Shown here piece after piece: positions 12,334-23,248 of a stretch of DNA of 64,000 bases; position 1 is the first letter of the stretch, and the number at the start of each line of letters is the position of its first letter. The position numbers and the translations under genes are program-made. The DNA is taken from positions 1-64,000 of IMG/VR virus record IMGVR_UViG_3300026549_001121. One strand, given 5' to 3'. The notes under the pieces were generated by a model. That model had not been told where the DNA came from. It made no database searches and worked only from the letters and a program-made list of their open reading frames with translations. The DNA is from a virus.

Positions 12334-15015
12334 ATGGCAGTAATAAAAAAAATAAAGTTAAATGATAATATTTATAATGTTGCCGCAGATTGGAATGATA
12401 TTGATAATAAACCTACTATTCCCACAAAAACCTCAGATTTAACCAATGATAGCGGGTTTTTAACTCAACATCAAGATATTTCTGGTAAAGAAGATGTATC
12501 AAATAAGGTTAATTTAGTATCTAATAATTCAACAGATAATCAATATCCTTCTGCAAAATGTCTTTATGATAGAACTCATTGGGTTAATGTTGATAATATA
12601 GATAATGCTATTGATTAGGATTGTTTTTATATTTATACAACAGGAACTAGTTATAATAAACAAATTTATTTTTTAATTTGTGTAGGAGATAATGTAGAAA
12701 ATTCAGGTGGGGTCAGAACTCAATATAGATGTAATGCGACTCCTGGCACATGGGAACGAACTATTCAATATCGCTCTTAGAGATATAGTAATTCAAAAAA
12801 TGGTTGGATTAATGATAAAGATGAGGTTGGAGCATGGACTGATTGGACATCTATCAGTAGTTCATCAGGCGGTGCAACAGTAGATGCTTATACAAAAGCA
12901 GAGATTGATACTCAAAGGGCGACCATTTTTAATACAATAGATGAAACTGCTATATAGTCTTTAATTAAACAATATGATTTACTTGTTTTAGAAAATAATG
13001 AATAGTTTAATACTTATGGAACTCAAGAATTAATTGATTATATAGAGGCTGACCCTAAAGAAGATACAGATTATACAACGTCTAATGTTCCAGATAATTT
13101 AAATGGTCATTATGAAGTGCCTTTAGGCTTTGAAATTACCATTCCAGAAGGTGGAAAAATAATTACTATATTTGATACAGTAATTAAACAATCTTGGATT
13201 GATAATATTGAAAACAATGAAAACAAATGGGCTAATATTACTATTAATCAAGATAATCAAAATAAATATTATATTACTAATTTAATTCCAAATAGGTTAT
13301 ATACATATACAATTAAAAACAGTAATGGGGAAATAATAGATACTGGAAAATGTCAAGCAAAAGATTCAATTCGTTTTATTGATGCAGGAAAAGTTGTTCC
13401 TTATAATTTAACCGATCCAACAGTGGTTAATACAGCAACGCGCCAATACTATAATATTCGAGACCTTGGTGGTTGGTCTTGTGATGGTGGAAATAAATTA
13501 AAATATGGTGTAATTTATCGTGGTTGTGAATTAAGTGGAACTTATACTTTTGGAACTTCTCCTGGCACTAAGTATGGATTTTAGTTACCTGATTATCAAA
13601 AATCTTTATTTAAAGATTTTTTAAAGATAAGAGATGAAATTGATTTACGTTAGAATAGTTTTATTCTTGGAACTAGTTATACTGAAACAGCCGGAGACGA
13701 TGGTGATTATGATACCGTTGATGATATCGATGAATCGGCTATTGGGGCAGGCGTTAGTTATGGACATTTTCCTGGCATTGGATATAAGTTAAACGAAGAT
13801 GTAATTGTTACTGTAGATGGAGAATAGATAACTTATAATAGTCGTATTCATTATATAAATGCTATTAAACGAATAGCGCAAGATATTCAAAATAATAAAC
13901 CTATATATATACATTGCTCTGCGGGAGCGGATAGAACTGGAACATTATGTATGCTAATAGAGGCTTTATGTGGAGTTTCAAAGGCTGATTTAGATAAAGA
14001 CTATGAACTTACTTCATATTCTAAAAATTTTAAAAGTCAACAAAATACAAGAAAACGTCTGAGTAATGATTGGAAAAATTTATTATCTTATATTAAAAAT
14101 AATTATGAGCCTTATAGTGAATCTTTTCGAGACCAAGTTATAGCATTTTTAATTTAGTCAGGAGTAACTATTGATGAAATTAATATTATTAGAGGTGGAC
14201 TAATTGATGGGACTGTTGATAATATTAAACATCCATATGCCAAAACTGATATTGTTGTAAATTTAACAAATGCTTCAATAGATAATGATATTACAAAAAT
14301 TGAAAAATATTCACCTTTTAAAGCAAAAATTTCTGTAAAAGATGGGTATGTTTTAAATTAGTTATCTATTACTATGAGTAGTTCAGGTCATACTTCTGAT
14401 ATAACTAACTCTGTATATTCTAATGGAATAATTAATATTCCTAAGGTTATAGGAGTTGTTCATATTACAGGAACGGCCGTACCCGATAATACGTTATATT
14501 AGACTTTAATTACTTCTAATAATAAACTTTCTAGTGATTTAGTTGATGATACTAATTCTAATAATAGATTTGTTACACCTGCCAATAAATCGACTTGGAA
14601 TAGTAAATATACAAAACCAAATACTGGTATTCCTAAAACTGATTTAGCAGATGATATATAGTCAAGTTTAACAAAAGCCGATAATTCTGCTTCTATTGAA
14701 ACTGGTACTATTACAAATAATTATGGTTGGTACGATGCAGGAACTTAGTTAACAGGGTCGTATACTTTATTTGGTGATTTATGTATTATTACTGGATATG
14801 CCGAGGTAAAAACTGGTCGGGGTGAAATTTGGTATTCGTTACCAGTAGCCGCGGTGCAAGGCGCAGCCGCAATAGCCATGGATGGCGGAAATTATTATTG
14901 TATTGGAACATCTGCAAAAGATAATGTTTCAGTAATGCGTATAACAAAAATGGATGGAGAGGATTTTCCTGAAAATAAAACAATTCATTTTGTATTAACT
15001 TATAAATGTCAATAA
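12334..15015 (+). CDS. tail fibre-like protein with tyrosine-phosphatase-like (Y_phosphatase3/PTP) domain; about 14 in-frame TAG codons
   Basis: One frame from 12334 to the TAA at 15013, joining track ORFs 12334-, 13117-, 13951- (same frame). Motifs NIRDLGGWSCDGG…KYGVIYRG and HCSAGADRTG (CX5R). TNDSGFLTQHQDISGK fibre repeat. Confidence 0.7.
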
Positions 15016-15036
15016 AATAAGGAGGTTTTTAATTAA

Positions 15037-15282
15037 TGGAACCAATAAAAACTTATACATTAGAAAAATTAAATGAAACAACCGTAAATGTTTTAATAAT
15101 TACTACTATTGAATTGAATGGAAAAACTTATGAAATTGAAAGAAGCCGTACTTGTTATGGGAATTCCCCTATTGGAAGATCTCAAATTGCTGAGTATTTA
15201 CCAGAATAGTATGTTCGAGCCATTTTAGAAATTTGGGGCGAAGAACCGACAATGATTGATCCAGAGCCACCAGAGGAATAAT
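15037..15282 (+). CDS. hypothetical structural-module protein (1 TAG)
   Basis: AAGGAGG RBS; frame kept through TAG to TAA. Confidence 0.5.
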
Positions 15283-20745: not shown

Positions 20746-21286
20746 TATTAATTTAAAAATTGTAAAAGAATATGTAGATAAAAAAGTTGCGGGAACTTTA
20801 ACTGGTAAATCTGCATATTAGATTGCAGTTGATAATGGCTTTGTAGGCACTGAATAGGAATGGTTAGCAGAAATAAAAAACTATGAGGAGTTAAATAATA
20901 AGCCTCAAATTAACAATGTCACCTTGTCAGGCAATAAAACATCGGATGATTTGAGCTTGCAAAGCAAACTAACCGCAGGAAATAACATCACAATCGAGAA
21001 CAATGTTATCTCAGCCGAGGGCGCGGATGTTTCAGGCAAGGCAGATAAGAGTTATGTTGATACTGAGCTCGCGAAAAAGGCGGATAAAACAGAAATTCCG
21101 ACTAAAATTTCAGCGTTTACAAATGATGTTGGCTATCTCACTCAACATCAGGATATTAGCGGTAAAGCCGACAAGTCCACCACCCTCTCAGGCTACGGCA
21201 TAACCAATGCGTACACCAAATCCGAGGTGGACGCGGCAATTCAAAACGCCATCGGCAACATTGAAACCCTGTTATCTCAGGTTTAA
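20738..21286 (+). CDS. tail fibre-like protein (2 TAG)
   Basis: SAY(Q)IAVDNGFVGTE(Q)EWLAEIKN and TNDVGYLTQHQDISGKADK repeats. Confidence 0.55.
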
Positions 21287-21298
21287 GGAGGCGGTATT

Positions 21299-23248
21299 TT
21301 GAGCATTTCAAGTGAAATTACACGAATCAAGACGAATATCGCAAACGCCTATACCGCCTGTGGCAATAAAGGCGGTACGCTTCCGCAAACGCAGAACAGC
21401 GCGAATCTTGCGGCGACCATCTCCGGCATCAGCGGCTCGGAAAATATCACGTGGCACCAGTGCCCGGAGGCAGTGCGCAATTACCTCGCGTATGTGGCGG
21501 CGCATCCGTATGATCCGAATGATTATAGTTATACATATATAACAAATTACGCACCATCTTCATCCGTTTCTGAAAACGTTAAGCCTATTGGGAAAGAGAT
21601 TGATGGAGTGACATTTTATGATAATGAACCAAACGTGGCCCTCCCCTTTTCTACAGCAAATAGTTCGGGTACACTTACAGCGATAGATAAACTTAGATGG
21701 TATAATACCACCCCAGCTCAGCCCGCCGAGGGAAGTATGTATTCAAGAGGGAGAAATACCCGAGATTTAGGTGGCTGGAACTGTGATGGGGGAACTATAA
21801 AATATGGAATATTAATCAGGGGAAGTGAGCCTAATCCTGTTGATAAAGAATTAATGGTTGATAAAATTGGTGTAAAAACCGAAGTGCAACTCTTACCCGT
21901 TAATGAGCAAGCGACTAATTATAAGAAAAAATCTGCCTGGGGAATAGATTGGGCTGGAAATGATACGGATAATGATTCTGTCTATAGTGTTAGTGATAGT
22001 CCAACACTATGGAAAAAGATTCTTAGTTCAATTTTTAATTCTGTGATACATAATAAGCCTGTTTATTTTCATTGTGGTGTTGGAGCAGATAGAACCGGAA
22101 TAATGGCTATGATGCTGGAAGGATTGCTTGGAGTAAGTCAAAGTGATATTGACCAAGATTTTGAATTAACAGATTTTGATTTGGGGTGGAAAACCTTAGA
22201 TGCGGGTATATATCGTTCTCGAGCATATAGTACATATGGAAGTGTTATATCCGCCATTAAAAGTATTCCCCTTGTAGGTGGTTTAACCGATAATTTTCGC
22301 AATCATTGTATATCATTTGTTTTATCACTTGGAATATCTCTTGATGAAATTAATGCTTTTCGTGCAGCATGTATTAATGGCACCCCTGAAACTATAACAG
22401 CTAATCTTTTATCTTATACTATTACTAAAAATGGGGAACATGTTTCTTTTAATAATAATGAGACAAGTATTAAAGAATTTCAAGGATACCAAACTGAAAT
22501 AACACCGGATTTTAGTTATGTTATAACAGATATAACTGTAATGATGGGAGGAAATAATATTACAAATTCTGTATTTTCCGGAACGGAGGCGTTAATCCGA
22601 CACGGTATTTCGAAAACTCTTAATAATTCAAGCATGGATAACACATCTGAAAAAGTTATAGATAATGAGAGCTATGCCGCAATTATTACGCCAGACGATA
22701 ATTATGCAATATCAAGCATTACGGTAACAATGGGTAATGTAGATATAACAGAAAATGCAGTAGTACTTATGAATGAGGAGGGAAAAATGAATTATTTAAA
22801 AGGCATTATTGCCATTCCAAAAGTAACCGGCAATATTGTAATAGCAGTAACAACAAAACCAATTCAATATGATAATTTATTTGATGAGAATACCGCATCC
22901 TATAACAGCAGGATTAGAGGGGTAGGCGCTGTCGGCACCAGCATCGGTCGCGTTGTGACCGCGCCGATTGACATTGCAAATATTTCAACGCTAACAGTAC
23001 AAGGCGTTACAACCGTTGTAAGTAATGACAACTCATATTTGAGGGCGGCTGCTTATAGCTCATCCAATGGCGGTGAAACGGATTACTTAGGTGTCATAAA
23101 CCTAGGCGCCAATACTTATACAGTTGATGTAGCTTCATTGAAAACCAGTTATCCTACAGCAACCCATGTAAGATTGGAACTTACACTGACTTATCCGAAC
23201 AATGTCACTAAAACTGATACAGCTAATCTTGTAATTTACGGTACATAA
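21299..23248 (+). CDS. tail fibre/receptor-binding protein with Y_phosphatase3 (PTP-like) domain, TTG start
   Basis: NTRDLGGWNCDGGTIKYGILIRG and HCGVGADRTG; GC-rich ends. Confidence 0.65.
   Translation: MSISSEITRIKTNIANAYTACGNKGGTLPQTQNSANLAATISGISGSENITWHQCPEAVRNYLAYVAAHPYDPNDYSYTYITNYAPSSSVSENVKPIGKEIDGVTFYDNEPNVALPFSTANSSGTLTAIDKLRWYNTTPAQPAEGSMYSRGRNTRDLGGWNCDGGTIKYGILIRGSEPNPVDKELMVDKIGVKTEVQLLPVNEQATNYKKKSAWGIDWAGNDTDNDSVYSVSDSPTLWKKILSSIFNSVIHNKPVYFHCGVGADRTGIMAMMLEGLLGVSQSDIDQDFELTDFDLGWKTLDAGIYRSRAYSTYGSVISAIKSIPLVGGLTDNFRNHCISFVLSLGISLDEINAFRAACINGTPETITANLLSYTITKNGEHVSFNNNETSIKEFQGYQTEITPDFSYVITDITVMMGGNNITNSVFSGTEALIRHGISKTLNNSSMDNTSEKVIDNESYAAIITPDDNYAISSITVTMGNVDITENAVVLMNEEGKMNYLKGIIAIPKVTGNIVIAVTTKPIQYDNLFDENTASYNSRIRGVGAVGTSIGRVVTAPIDIANISTLTVQGVTTVVSNDNSYLRAAAYSSSNGGETDYLGVINLGANTYTVDVASLKTSYPTATHVRLELTLTYPNNVTKTDTANLVIYGT

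What the first reader, a model, noticed from the sequence alone, without database searches (positions are those of the whole stretch)
12334..23248. Tyrosine-phosphatase-like (Y_phosphatase3) domains inside two tail-fibre proteins
Both 12334-15015 and 21299-23248 contain N(I/T)RDLGGW.CDGG..KYG..(Y/I)RG followed about 150 aa later by HC(S/G)(A/V)GADRTG, the NxRDLGG + CX5R signature of the bacterial PF13350-type tyrosine-phosphatase family. They sit within proteins that otherwise look like receptor-binding fibres. A catalytic PTP fold on a virion fibre could act on phosphorylated surface glycans or teichoic acids, or be an inactive binding module.
Basis: partly seen in the sequence, partly recalled or inferred. 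Interest (0 to 1): 0.5.

Follow-up and report, generated by a model that had tools for sequence, protein, structure and literature searches.

The report
Phosphatase modules built into phage fibres
Two tail-fibre-type proteins of a large, TAG-recoded gut phage each carry an intact cysteine phosphatase domain (Pfam PF13350, the family of M. tuberculosis PtpB); thousands of uncultured phages of gut Clostridia encode related proteins, nobody has studied them, and the domain most likely works on or grips phosphate groups on the host cell surface.

Summary
Gene A (12334-15015) and gene B (21299-23248) each match Pfam PF13350 far above threshold, at 73.6 and 69 bits against a cut-off of 22.2. Both keep NxRDLGG and the HCxxGxDRTG P-loop.

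Gene A is an ORF only if 12 in-frame TAG codons are read as Gln. A tRNA(CTA) and TAG/CAA swaps with an orthologue support that reading.

The AlphaFold model of B (pLDDT 91) superposes best on the C. difficile PTP and on M. tuberculosis PtpB. Across 140 diverse relatives, Cys is kept in 139, the P-loop Asp in 138 and Arg in 130. The PTP domain is the best-conserved part of the protein.

A syntenic relative has the same fibre as A (same N-terminus, 90% identical tip) without the phosphatase. The PTP is therefore a cassette inserted into a fibre. Its closest cellular relatives are secreted, dockerin-anchored proteins of Ruminococcus.

In related loci the gene lies between tail-fibre genes and holin/endolysin genes, in MAGs of Oscillospiraceae, Ruminococcus and other Clostridia.

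Best reading, inferred and not shown: a virion-displayed phosphatase acting on phosphorylated host envelope polymers. No substrate is known, and I found no study of such proteins. It is a new variant of the known class of enzyme-bearing phage fibres.

The parts
12334..15015 (+). Gene A: 893-codon tail-fibre-type protein with 12 in-frame TAG (=Gln) codons, ending in TAA; ATG preceded by AAAGGAG
12334..12534 (+). A res 1-67: N-terminal anchor plus fibre repeat (IPTKTSDLTNDSGFLTQHQDISGK). It is shared with the PTP-less orthologue of relative L004 (60% id) and with many phage tail-fibre-type proteins
12535..14607 (+). A res 68-758: segment absent from the orthologous fibre of the relative. This is the inserted cassette carrying the pre-PTP beta domain, the PTP domain, an Ig-like domain and a fibre repeat
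13120..13443 (+). A res ~263-370: beta-rich (FN3-like) domain directly before the PTP domain. It is homologous to the same region of bacterial dockerin-PTP proteins
   Evidence: 41% id over A 263-627 vs P0131, E 8e-76; the fn3 hit is weak (E 0.066)
13444..14127 (+). A res 371-598: PF13350 (Y_phosphatase3) match; homology continues to about res 628 (nt 14217)
13453..13473 (+). A NIRDLGG motif (res 374-380)
13912..13941 (+). A P-loop HCSAGADRTG (res 527-536): Cys528 nucleophile, Asp533 acid/base, Arg534
   Evidence: residue roles from PMC6409689
14251..14484 (+). A res ~640-717: Ig-like domain following the PTP domain, homologous to B res ~365-520
14608..15012 (+). A res 759-893: distal fibre tip, 90% identical to the tip of the PTP-less fibre in relative L004. 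The preceding res 707-788 match PHROG 27373 'tail protein'
21299..23248 (+). Gene B: 649-aa protein with no TAG codons; TTG start 7 nt after AAGGAGG
21299..21433 (+). B res 1-45: variable N-terminal helix (putative attachment adaptor). Several alternative N-termini occur in the family
21434..21748 (+). B res 46-150: conserved domain preceding the PTP fold (median 58% id among close relatives)
21749..22390 (+). B res 151-364: PTP fold (Pfam match 150-292). It is the most conserved region (median 68% id) and superposes on 8dhi and 1ywf
21755..21775 (+). B NTRDLGG motif (res 153-159)
22070..22099 (+). B P-loop HCGVGADRTG (res 258-267): Cys259, Asp264, Arg265
22391..23245 (+). B res 365-649: two Ig-like domains and a C-terminal beta-sandwich. 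This region is variable among relatives and only generically similar to Ig and CBM folds
29000..29070 (-). Suppressor tRNA with anticodon CTA, needed to translate gene A
20738..21286 (+). Fibre-repeat protein directly upstream of B. It carries the same TNDxGYLTQHQDISGK repeat as A and matches tail-fibre PHROGs
20341..20745 (+). Small CBM_5_12 protein; the same kind of gene flanks the PTP gene in L001-L003
23252..23497 (+). XhlA-like small membrane protein (holin-associated type) directly after B

Best explanation
Both genes encode virion fibre-type proteins of a large TAG-to-Gln recoded phage of gut Clostridia (order Oscillospirales). Each displays a catalytically competent, cysteine-based phosphatase module of the PF13350 (PtpB-like) family.

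The module is a mobile cassette. In A it is inserted between the anchor and the receptor-binding tip of an otherwise ordinary fibre. In B it forms the conserved core between a variable N-terminal adaptor and variable Ig/CBM-like distal domains.

Proposed mechanism (inferred): during adsorption in the anaerobic, reducing gut, the distal domains dock the fibre on the host envelope. The P-loop (Cys nucleophile, Arg for phosphate binding, P-loop Asp as acid/base) then binds and hydrolyses phosphomonoester groups on a cell-surface glycopolymer. This would be a receptor-modifying enzyme, analogous to the esterases, phosphodiesterases and depolymerases found on other phage fibres.

Shown: domain identity, fold, conservation of catalytic residues, cassette insertion, fibre and lysis-module context, host clade.

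Inferred: presence in the virion, enzymatic activity, extracellular site of action, nature of the substrate.
For: - Domain: PF13350 at 73.6 and 69 bits. The family profile hits C. difficile PTP at 3.5e-15 and PtpB at 1.4e-8. The model of B has pLDDT 91.2, and the top Foldseek PDB hits are 8dhi, 1ywf and 2oz5.
- Catalytic residues, close relatives: N153, R155, D156, H258, C259, G262, D264, T266 and G267 are invariant and R265 is kept in at least 90% of 87 sequences of 27-91% identity.
- Catalytic residues, diverse relatives: among 140 representatives of 50%-identity clusters, Cys 139, Asp 138, Arg 130. The PTP domain is the most conserved region, at 68% median identity against 32-39% for the termini.
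- Cassette: the L004 orthologue of A equals A res 1-67 plus res 759-893 (90% id) with no PTP.
- Extracellular use of the same unit: A res 263-627 is 41% identical (E 8e-76) to chromosomal proteins with signal-peptide-like N-termini and dockerin domains.
- Fibre context: tail PHROG and fibre repeats. Relatives lie after tail-fibre genes and before holins and endolysins.
- Hosts: 191 relatives in genomes, nearly all MAGs of Oscillospiraceae, Ruminococcus or other Clostridia.
- Precedent for carbohydrate or inositol substrates in the PTP superfamily: a PF13350 member with phytase activity (PMC6409689); laforin and SEX4 (own knowledge).
Against: - No substrate is identified. Phosphomonoesters are not a documented major feature of Gram-positive wall polymers, whose phosphates are mostly diesters, and Cys-PTPs are not known to cleave diesters (own knowledge).
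- No proteomic or structural proof that either protein is in the virion.
- 10 of 140 representatives have Lys or Ile in place of the catalytic Arg, so catalysis is dispensable in at least some lineages.
- The related phage does without the cassette in its A-type fibre, so in that fibre it is accessory.
- No structural model of A could be made.
Confidence: 0.45

Rival explanations
1. Phosphate-recognition module rather than enzyme. The PTP fold serves as a lectin-like binder whose P-loop grips phosphate groups of teichoic-acid-like or phosphoglycan polymers (including diesters) to hold the fibre on the cell, with little or no turnover.
For: - 9 of 140 representatives carry CX5K and one carries Ile at the Arg position, changes that cripple classical PTPs (own knowledge).
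- The ALP Lys that helps bind phosphoinositides is replaced by Ala in 123 of 140 (PMC6409689).
- The domain sits among Ig/CBM-like binding domains.
- Wall phosphates are mostly diesters, which are poor substrates but possible ligands (own knowledge).
Against: The residues needed only for chemistry, not binding, are almost universally kept over deep divergence: Cys nucleophile 139/140, preceding His 137/140, P-loop Asp 138/140. That is not expected for a pure binding module, and known pseudophosphatases typically lose the Cys (own knowledge).
Confidence: 0.25
2. Protein or small-molecule phosphatase with a target other than the host envelope. Possible targets are phosphorylated host surface or secreted proteins, or environmental phosphates such as phytate or phosphorylated dietary glycans. 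This would mirror whatever the dockerin-anchored bacterial homologues do.
For: - The nearest cellular relatives are secreted, dockerin-bearing proteins of Ruminococcus-type bacteria, whose substrates could be dietary.
- A PF13350 enzyme with phytase activity is described (PMC6409689).
- Characterised family members (PtpB) act on proteins and lipids.
Against: - No benefit to a phage from degrading dietary phosphates is evident.
- The module is embedded in adsorption proteins and flanked by variable, host-specificity-type domains.
- The ALP Lys is absent.
Confidence: 0.15
3. The proteins are not virion components. They would be lysis- or release-associated proteins (B lies next to an XhlA-like gene, and relatives lie next to holin and endolysin genes) that act on the wall from within at the end of infection.
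For: Downstream neighbours are holins and endolysins in many loci; an XhlA-like gene follows B.
Against: - In phages of Gram-positive hosts the last gene before the lysis cassette is usually a fibre or receptor-binding protein (own knowledge).
- A is demonstrably a fibre with an inserted cassette.
- Upstream neighbours are tail-fibre genes.
- B has no signal peptide or transmembrane segment.
Confidence: 0.1
4. Decaying passenger domain with no present function.
For: The cassette is absent from the orthologous fibre of a close relative.
Against: - The PTP domain is the best-conserved part of the protein across hundreds of clusters.
- The cassette region of A (res 68-758) is unbroken in the recoded reading: its only in-frame stops are 9 TAG codons, and all motifs are intact.
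Confidence: 0.05

Closest known systems
PF13350 / atypical lipid phosphatase (ALP) group: M. tuberculosis PtpB (PDB 1ywf, 2oz5), C. difficile PTP (8dhi, 8dhj), metagenomic Pho16B
   Same: Same Pfam family; same N-terminal NxRDxGG motif; same P-loop layout HCxxGxDR(T)G with the acid/base Asp inside the loop; same fold for B.
   Different: - The Lys of the ALP signature HCXXGKDR[TA]G is Ala in A, in B and in 123 of 140 relatives.
- The known members are free-standing proteins of about 240-300 aa that are cytoplasmic or secreted. Here the domain is fused into 650-900-aa phage fibre-type proteins with Ig/CBM-like domains.
- Sequence identity to solved structures is only 13-16%.
Enzyme-bearing phage receptor-binding proteins (tailspike depolymerases, SGNH/GDSL esterase fibres, glycerophosphodiesterase-carrying baseplate proteins of staphylococcal phages)
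   Same: A hydrolase domain is displayed on an adsorption protein with variable distal binding domains. BFVD fold hits to parts of B include phage proteins with SGNH, GDSL and calcineurin-like phosphoesterase domains and a Dit.
   Different: The catalytic fold (Cys-based PTP) and the implied chemistry (phosphomonoester hydrolysis) were not found described for any phage fibre in the literature I could search. The comparison with these systems rests partly on own knowledge.
Glucan phosphatases laforin, SEX4 and LSF2 (own knowledge)
   Same: A PTP-superfamily catalytic domain is coupled to carbohydrate-binding modules to dephosphorylate a polysaccharide. This is a mechanistic precedent for the proposed action.
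   Different: They belong to a different PTP subfamily (dual-specificity), are eukaryotic and act on intracellular substrates. No homology beyond the superfamily was tested here.
Dockerin-anchored PF13350 proteins of Ruminococcus-type bacteria (P0130-P0138, P0223)
   Same: They are the closest cellular relatives of A's cassette: 41-48% identity covering the pre-PTP beta domain and the whole PTP domain.
   Different: They have a signal peptide and a dockerin (and LRR_5 in P0223) instead of fibre segments, lack the Ig-like tail, and sit in chromosomal, non-phage contexts. They are themselves uncharacterised.
UniProt/BFVD entries A0A8S5QN55, A0A8S5V632 and A0A8S5T7U1 ('Tyrosine phosphatase family protein', human gut virome contigs)
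   Same: Same multi-domain architecture of about 600 aa (Foldseek E 6e-51 to 4e-16).
   Different: They carry automatic annotation only. I found no functional, structural or virion data.

Membership tests
Pfam PF13350 (Y_phosphatase3) | Profile score above the curated gathering threshold (22.2 bits) | tested here: met
   A 73.6 bits, E 3.1e-20; B 69 bits, E 7.9e-19
Pfam PF13350 (Y_phosphatase3) | CX5R P-loop with Cys nucleophile and Arg | tested here: met
   A HCSAGADRTG, B HCGVGADRTG. Among relatives, Cys 139/140 and Arg 130/140
Pfam PF13350 (Y_phosphatase3) | PTP fold like PtpB | tested here: met
   For B only: model pLDDT 91.2; Foldseek top hits 8dhi and 1ywf, E about 1e-5, probability 1.00, TM (target-normalised) 0.54-0.55. 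A could not be modelled because the tool refuses TAG-containing sequence; A is 29% identical to B across the domain
Pfam PF13350 (Y_phosphatase3) | Phosphatase activity | not testable with these tools
   Needs enzyme assays
Atypical lipid phosphatases (ALP subgroup; signature HCXXGKDR[TA]G, PMC6409689) | P-loop Asp acting as acid/base catalyst | tested here: met
   D533 in A, D264 in B; invariant in alignment A1; 138/140 representatives
Atypical lipid phosphatases (ALP subgroup; signature HCXXGKDR[TA]G, PMC6409689) | Extra basic Lys before the Asp, important for substrate (phosphoinositide) binding | tested here: not met
   Ala in A and B. Among 140 representatives: Ala 123, Arg 7, Lys 1. They should therefore not be filed as ALPs in the strict sense
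Phage tail fibre / receptor-binding protein | Homology of non-enzymatic parts to known fibre proteins | tested here: met
   - A res 707-788 match PHROG 27373 'tail protein', 1.5e-7.
- A's N-terminal repeat is shared with proteins carrying Phage_tail_C, Mtd_N, PTR, Phage_fiber_rpt or Gp10_C.
- A's ends equal a 336-aa fibre in the relative.
- For B there is only generic fold similarity to Dit and tail-decoration domains
Phage tail fibre / receptor-binding protein | Position in the tail/adsorption module | tested here: met
   Within the window, tail-fibre-type genes (including the DGR target) lie around and between A and B. In related loci, tail-fibre PHROGs lie upstream and holins and endolysins downstream
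Phage tail fibre / receptor-binding protein | Physical presence on the virion, trimeric fibre assembly, receptor binding | not testable with these tools
   Needs virion proteomics, cryo-EM and binding assays
Genetic code 15 phage (TAG = Gln) | In-frame TAG in conserved genes, a suppressor tRNA, and TAG aligned with Gln codons in orthologues | tested here: met
   - 12, 9 and 5 in-frame TAG codons in A, the DGR target and the RT.
- tRNA-CTA is present.
- A codon 805 TAG corresponds to CAA in L004, and A codon 45 CAA corresponds to TAG in L004.
- A TAG sits directly after PYYPDRII in the RT, where reverse transcriptases usually have Gln (motif from own knowledge)

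The most novel reading that the evidence does not exclude
Phage fibres of gut Clostridia carry a previously unrecognised class of receptor-modifying enzyme, a Cys-based phosphomonoesterase. It would strip phosphate groups from a host cell-wall glycopolymer, or from a surface structure also handled by the hosts' own dockerin-anchored homologues, as an obligatory step of adsorption. That would imply that phosphomonoester-decorated surface glycans are a common phage receptor determinant in Oscillospirales.
Probability: 0.3. Interest if true: 0.75.

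Novelty: new variant of a known kind. Interest (0 to 1): 0.55.

Why it matters
Almost nothing is known about how phages adsorb to the dominant gut Clostridia (Ruminococcus, Oscillospiraceae), because few of these phages are cultured.

A conserved, apparently active phosphatase on the adsorption proteins of hundreds of phage lineages points to a phosphate-bearing surface structure as a recurrent receptor or barrier. It also gives a concrete, expressible reagent for finding that structure: the wild-type domain and a Cys-to-Ser trapping mutant.

It would add a new chemistry to the list of virion-borne receptor-modifying enzymes. It also raises the parallel question of what the hosts' own dockerin-anchored copies do.

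The case shows, too, that standard-code gene calling hides such domains in TAG-recoded phages. Gene A is split into fragments, and its two catalytic motifs fall in different fragments.

Tried and rejected
Only B and its C-terminal half were modelled.
- The afdb50 fold library was unavailable.
- tblastn of B against 50,697 deposited phage genomes gave a single weak hit to an unannotated 7-kb faecal contig, so no cultured relative was found.
- PHROGs gave nothing for B. NCBIfam gave nothing for A or B.
- Cluster look-up returned no names for six homologues.
- Literature searches found no study of a phosphatase on a phage fibre or of dockerin-PTP proteins. The one apparent hit (PMC7291167) was only a reference-list entry.
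- Inferring the amino acid at TAG from alignment of A to homologues was inconclusive, because the columns were variable or gapped. The orthologue comparison settled it.
- Considered and rejected: that B is a read-through extension of the upstream gene. The two are in the same frame, separated by TAA plus four codons. However, TAA is a genuine stop here, B has its own strong Shine-Dalgarno sequence, and homologues start at the same N-terminus.

Full report
**1. What is in the sequence**

In the standard bacterial code, 12334-15015 is not one ORF. It breaks into pieces such as 12334-12618 and 13117-13584. Translating the frame end to end gives 893 codons with 12 internal stops, all TAG, and a terminal TAA.

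- With the composition of this stretch, the chance of meeting no TAA or TGA in 893 codons is about 1e-27.
- Reading TAG as sense also restores long ORFs for the neighbouring + strand genes: 16200-18167 with 9 TAG and 18618-19862 with 5 TAG. Most of the long - strand ORFs contain no TAG.
- A tRNA with anticodon CTA lies at 29000-29070, inside an array of 33 tRNAs plus a tmRNA.
- A syntenic relative on a 181-kb metagenomic contig (L004) has an orthologue of gene A. At a conserved position, A's TAG (codon 805) is CAA in the relative, and A's CAA (codon 45) is TAG in the relative.
- In the reverse transcriptase, a TAG sits directly after PYYPDRII, where reverse transcriptases usually have Gln (motif from own knowledge).

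So TAG = Gln, as described for gut phages (PMC9523058 and PMC10879173, listed).

Gene B (21299-23248) has no TAG. It starts at TTG, seven bases after AAGGAGG.

**2. The observation**

| | NxRDLGGW motif | P-loop | Spacing |
|---|---|---|---|
| A | NIRDLGGW, res 374 | HCSAGADRTG, res 527 | 153 aa |
| B | NTRDLGGW, res 153 | HCGVGADRTG, res 258 | 105 aa |

They are the only such sites in the six frames of the window. Three of A's TAG codons (417, 440, 498) lie between its two motifs, so the domain is intact only in the recoded reading.

**3. Domain identity**

- Pfam PF13350 (Y_phosphatase3) is matched at 73.6 bits (A, res 371-598) and 69 bits (B, res 150-292), against a cut-off of 22.2. Weaker hits go to other PTP-clan families.
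- A and B are 29% identical over A 374-696 / B 153-427 (E 1e-36). They share the PTP domain and a following Ig-like domain.
- A profile of B and 86 relatives hits the C. difficile PTP (8dhi) at 3.5e-15 and M. tuberculosis PtpB (1ywf) at 1.4e-8.
- AlphaFold2 with that alignment gives a model of B with mean pLDDT 91.2. Foldseek against the PDB ranks 8dhi/8dhj and 1ywf/2oz5 first (E about 1e-5, probability 1.00), followed by dual-specificity phosphatases and Siw14.

The outcome that would have refuted the finding, an unrelated fold, did not occur. A itself could not be modelled, because the tool refuses sequences containing translated TAG.

**4. Are the catalytic residues kept?**

- In 87 sequences of 27-91% identity to B, N153, R155, D156, G158, G159, W160, H258, C259, G262, D264, T266 and G267 are invariant, and R265 is at least 90% conserved.
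- An exhaustive search of 1.84 billion cluster representatives found 4603 relatives at E ≤ 1e-3, 1271 at ≤ 1e-10 and 237 at ≤ 1e-30.
- Among the 140 listed representatives that cover the P-loop, the counts are His 137, Cys 139, Asp 138 and Arg 130, with Lys in 9 and Ile in 1 at the Arg position.
- In this family the P-loop Asp is the acid/base catalyst, and the ALP signature is HCXXGKDR[TA]G (PMC6409689).
- The phage proteins keep the Asp but have Ala where ALPs have the substrate-binding Lys: 123 of 140, and also A and B.
- Among 64 close relatives of B, median identity by region is 68% for the PTP domain, 58% for the preceding domain, 32% for the N-terminal helix, 39% for the Ig-like domains and 36% for the C-terminal domain.

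A conserved catalytic core flanked by variable ends is what a working enzyme on a host-range protein would look like. The CX5K minority shows that catalysis may have been given up in some lineages.

**5. Are these fibre proteins?**

*Gene A.*
- Res 707-788 match PHROG 27373 ('tail protein', 1.5e-7).
- Its N-terminal repeat (IPTKTSDLTNDSGFLTQHQDISGK) recurs in thousands of proteins. The sampled ones carry Phage_tail_C, Mtd_N, PTR, Phage_fiber_rpt or Gp10_C domains.
- The relative L004 shares the flanks of the region at about 95% DNA identity. It has a 336-aa orthologue, also TAG-recoded with 5 TAG. That orthologue aligns to A res 1-67 (60% id) and A res 759-893 (90% id), and has only fibre repeats in between.
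- About 690 residues of A (68-758) are therefore an insertion into an ordinary fibre, between its anchor and its tip. The insertion carries the pre-PTP beta domain, the PTP domain and an Ig-like domain.

*Gene B.*
- In the window it follows a fibre-repeat protein (20738-21286) and a CBM_5_12 protein (20341-20745), and it precedes an XhlA-like membrane protein (23252-23497).
- In an unrelated phage contig (L001-L003) the homologue lies between the capsid gene and a CBM_5_12 / holin / amidase group.
- Across loci from reference genomes, downstream ORFs include Amidase_2 (4), GH25 (3), PG_binding_1 (4) and six holin families. Upstream ORFs match tail-fibre PHROGs.
- B has no signal peptide.
- The family shows several alternative N-terminal peptides on the same core.
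- BFVD fold hits to parts of B include a Dit, a lactococcal tail-protein extension, and phage proteins with SGNH, GDSL or calcineurin-like domains.

Virion location is therefore strongly suggested but not shown.

**6. Where the module comes from and who the hosts are**

- The nearest relatives of A's module include 425-480-aa proteins with Dockerin_1, and one with LRR_5 plus dockerin.
- They have signal-peptide-like N-termini and sit in ordinary chromosomal contexts.
- A res 263-627 is 41% identical to one of them (E 8e-76), covering both the pre-PTP beta domain and the PTP domain.
- The same unit is thus used by the bacteria as a secreted, surface-anchored protein.
- A scan of one genome per species found 191 relatives. 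They are almost all in gut and rumen MAGs of Oscillospiraceae, Ruminococcus, Acutalibacteraceae, Butyricicoccaceae and other Clostridia.
- No cultured phage has a relative.
- UniProt/BFVD holds about 600-aa gut-virome proteins automatically named 'Tyrosine phosphatase family protein'.

**7. Mechanism**

*Shown:* a PtpB-type fold with a complete catalytic apparatus, conserved better than the rest of the protein, inserted as a cassette in adsorption-type proteins of phages of anaerobic gut Clostridia.

*Inferred:* the enzyme is displayed on the tail and acts outside the cell. A Cys-based phosphatase would stay reduced in the anaerobic gut. The distal Ig/CBM-like domains or the fibre tip position it on the envelope. 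It removes, or at least grips, phosphate groups of a surface glycopolymer. This parallels the esterase, phosphodiesterase and depolymerase domains of other phage fibres, and the PTP-fold glucan phosphatases that combine a catalytic domain with CBMs (own knowledge).

*Main weakness:* no suitable phosphomonoester substrate is known on these bacteria, and wall phosphates are mostly diesters.

*Rivals, in order:* a non-catalytic phosphate-binding module; a phosphatase aimed at proteins or dietary phosphates; a lysis-associated protein that is not in the virion; a functionless passenger.

**8. Novelty**

The domain family is known, and automatic annotation already labels such phage proteins. I found no description of a PTP-fold module on a phage fibre, nor of the dockerin-linked bacterial homologues. 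I rate it a new variant of a known kind (enzyme-bearing fibres), of moderate interest. Interest would be higher if a surface phosphoglycan substrate is found.

Noticed in passing
window 12128-21286 (+) versus the rest; tRNA-CTA at 29000-29070 (-): TAG is used as a sense codon (Gln) almost only in the + strand fibre/DGR block; most long - strand ORFs have none. TAG and CAA interchange between orthologues of the window and relative L004. The pattern fits late-gene recoding in a large phage.
   Followed up: yes
window 16200-19862 (+): target gene 16200-18167, VR 18017-18159, TR 18287-18429, RT 18648-19862: A complete diversity-generating retroelement lies between the two PTP genes. VR and TR are 76% identical, with mismatches at TR adenines. 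The target matches PHROG 5302 'tail protein' (5e-67). The RT matches RVT_1 (7e-20). Both genes need TAG read-through.
   Followed up: partly
window 32309-32913 (-): Full-length ROOL RNA (RF03087, 338.8 bits against a gathering score of 99.1), embedded in the tRNA array.
   Followed up: no
window 28888-45913 (-): Array of 33 tRNA genes plus a tmRNA (29569-29879, tag ADYSAYKMAA). One further tRNA-like match at 35960-36021 was seen only by Rfam. Few long ORFs lie in 27.6-37.6 kb.
   Followed up: no
window 8670-11144 (-): An 824-aa protein with major-vault-protein domains (MVP_shoulder 4.6e-20, Vault_3 1e-9). It is conserved next to an HD-domain gene in relative L004. This is unusual for a phage.
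   Followed up: no
window 21299-23248 versus 12334-15015: Gene B has GC 0.39 (0.47 in its first 150 codons) and no TAG, against GC 0.30 and 12 TAG for gene A. This suggests B or its parts came from non-recoded phages. B is 91.7% identical at DNA level to the L004 copy, while the flanks are about 95% identical.
   Followed up: partly
window 20738-21298: The upstream fibre-repeat gene and gene B are in the same reading frame, separated only by TAA and four codons that contain B's Shine-Dalgarno sequence.
   Followed up: partly
L006 6001-7857; L007 6001-7365: Bacterial chromosomal homologues fuse the same PTP unit to dockerin (and LRR_5). In L007 the gene abuts a polysaccharide-synthesis cluster (flippase, two GT4 genes, EpsG) and lies near a PAP2 phosphatase gene. 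Their function is unknown.
   Followed up: partly
proteins P0373, P0377, P0379, P0383, P0388, P0391, P0393, P0403, P0423: A sub-lineage of phage-type relatives has HCGxGADKTG, with Lys in place of the catalytic Arg. P0500 has Ile and P0490 lacks the Cys. These are possible pseudo-phosphatases.
   Followed up: partly
window 25277-26827 (-): A DUF2828/DUF7788 protein (4e-40), conserved in relative L004.
   Followed up: no
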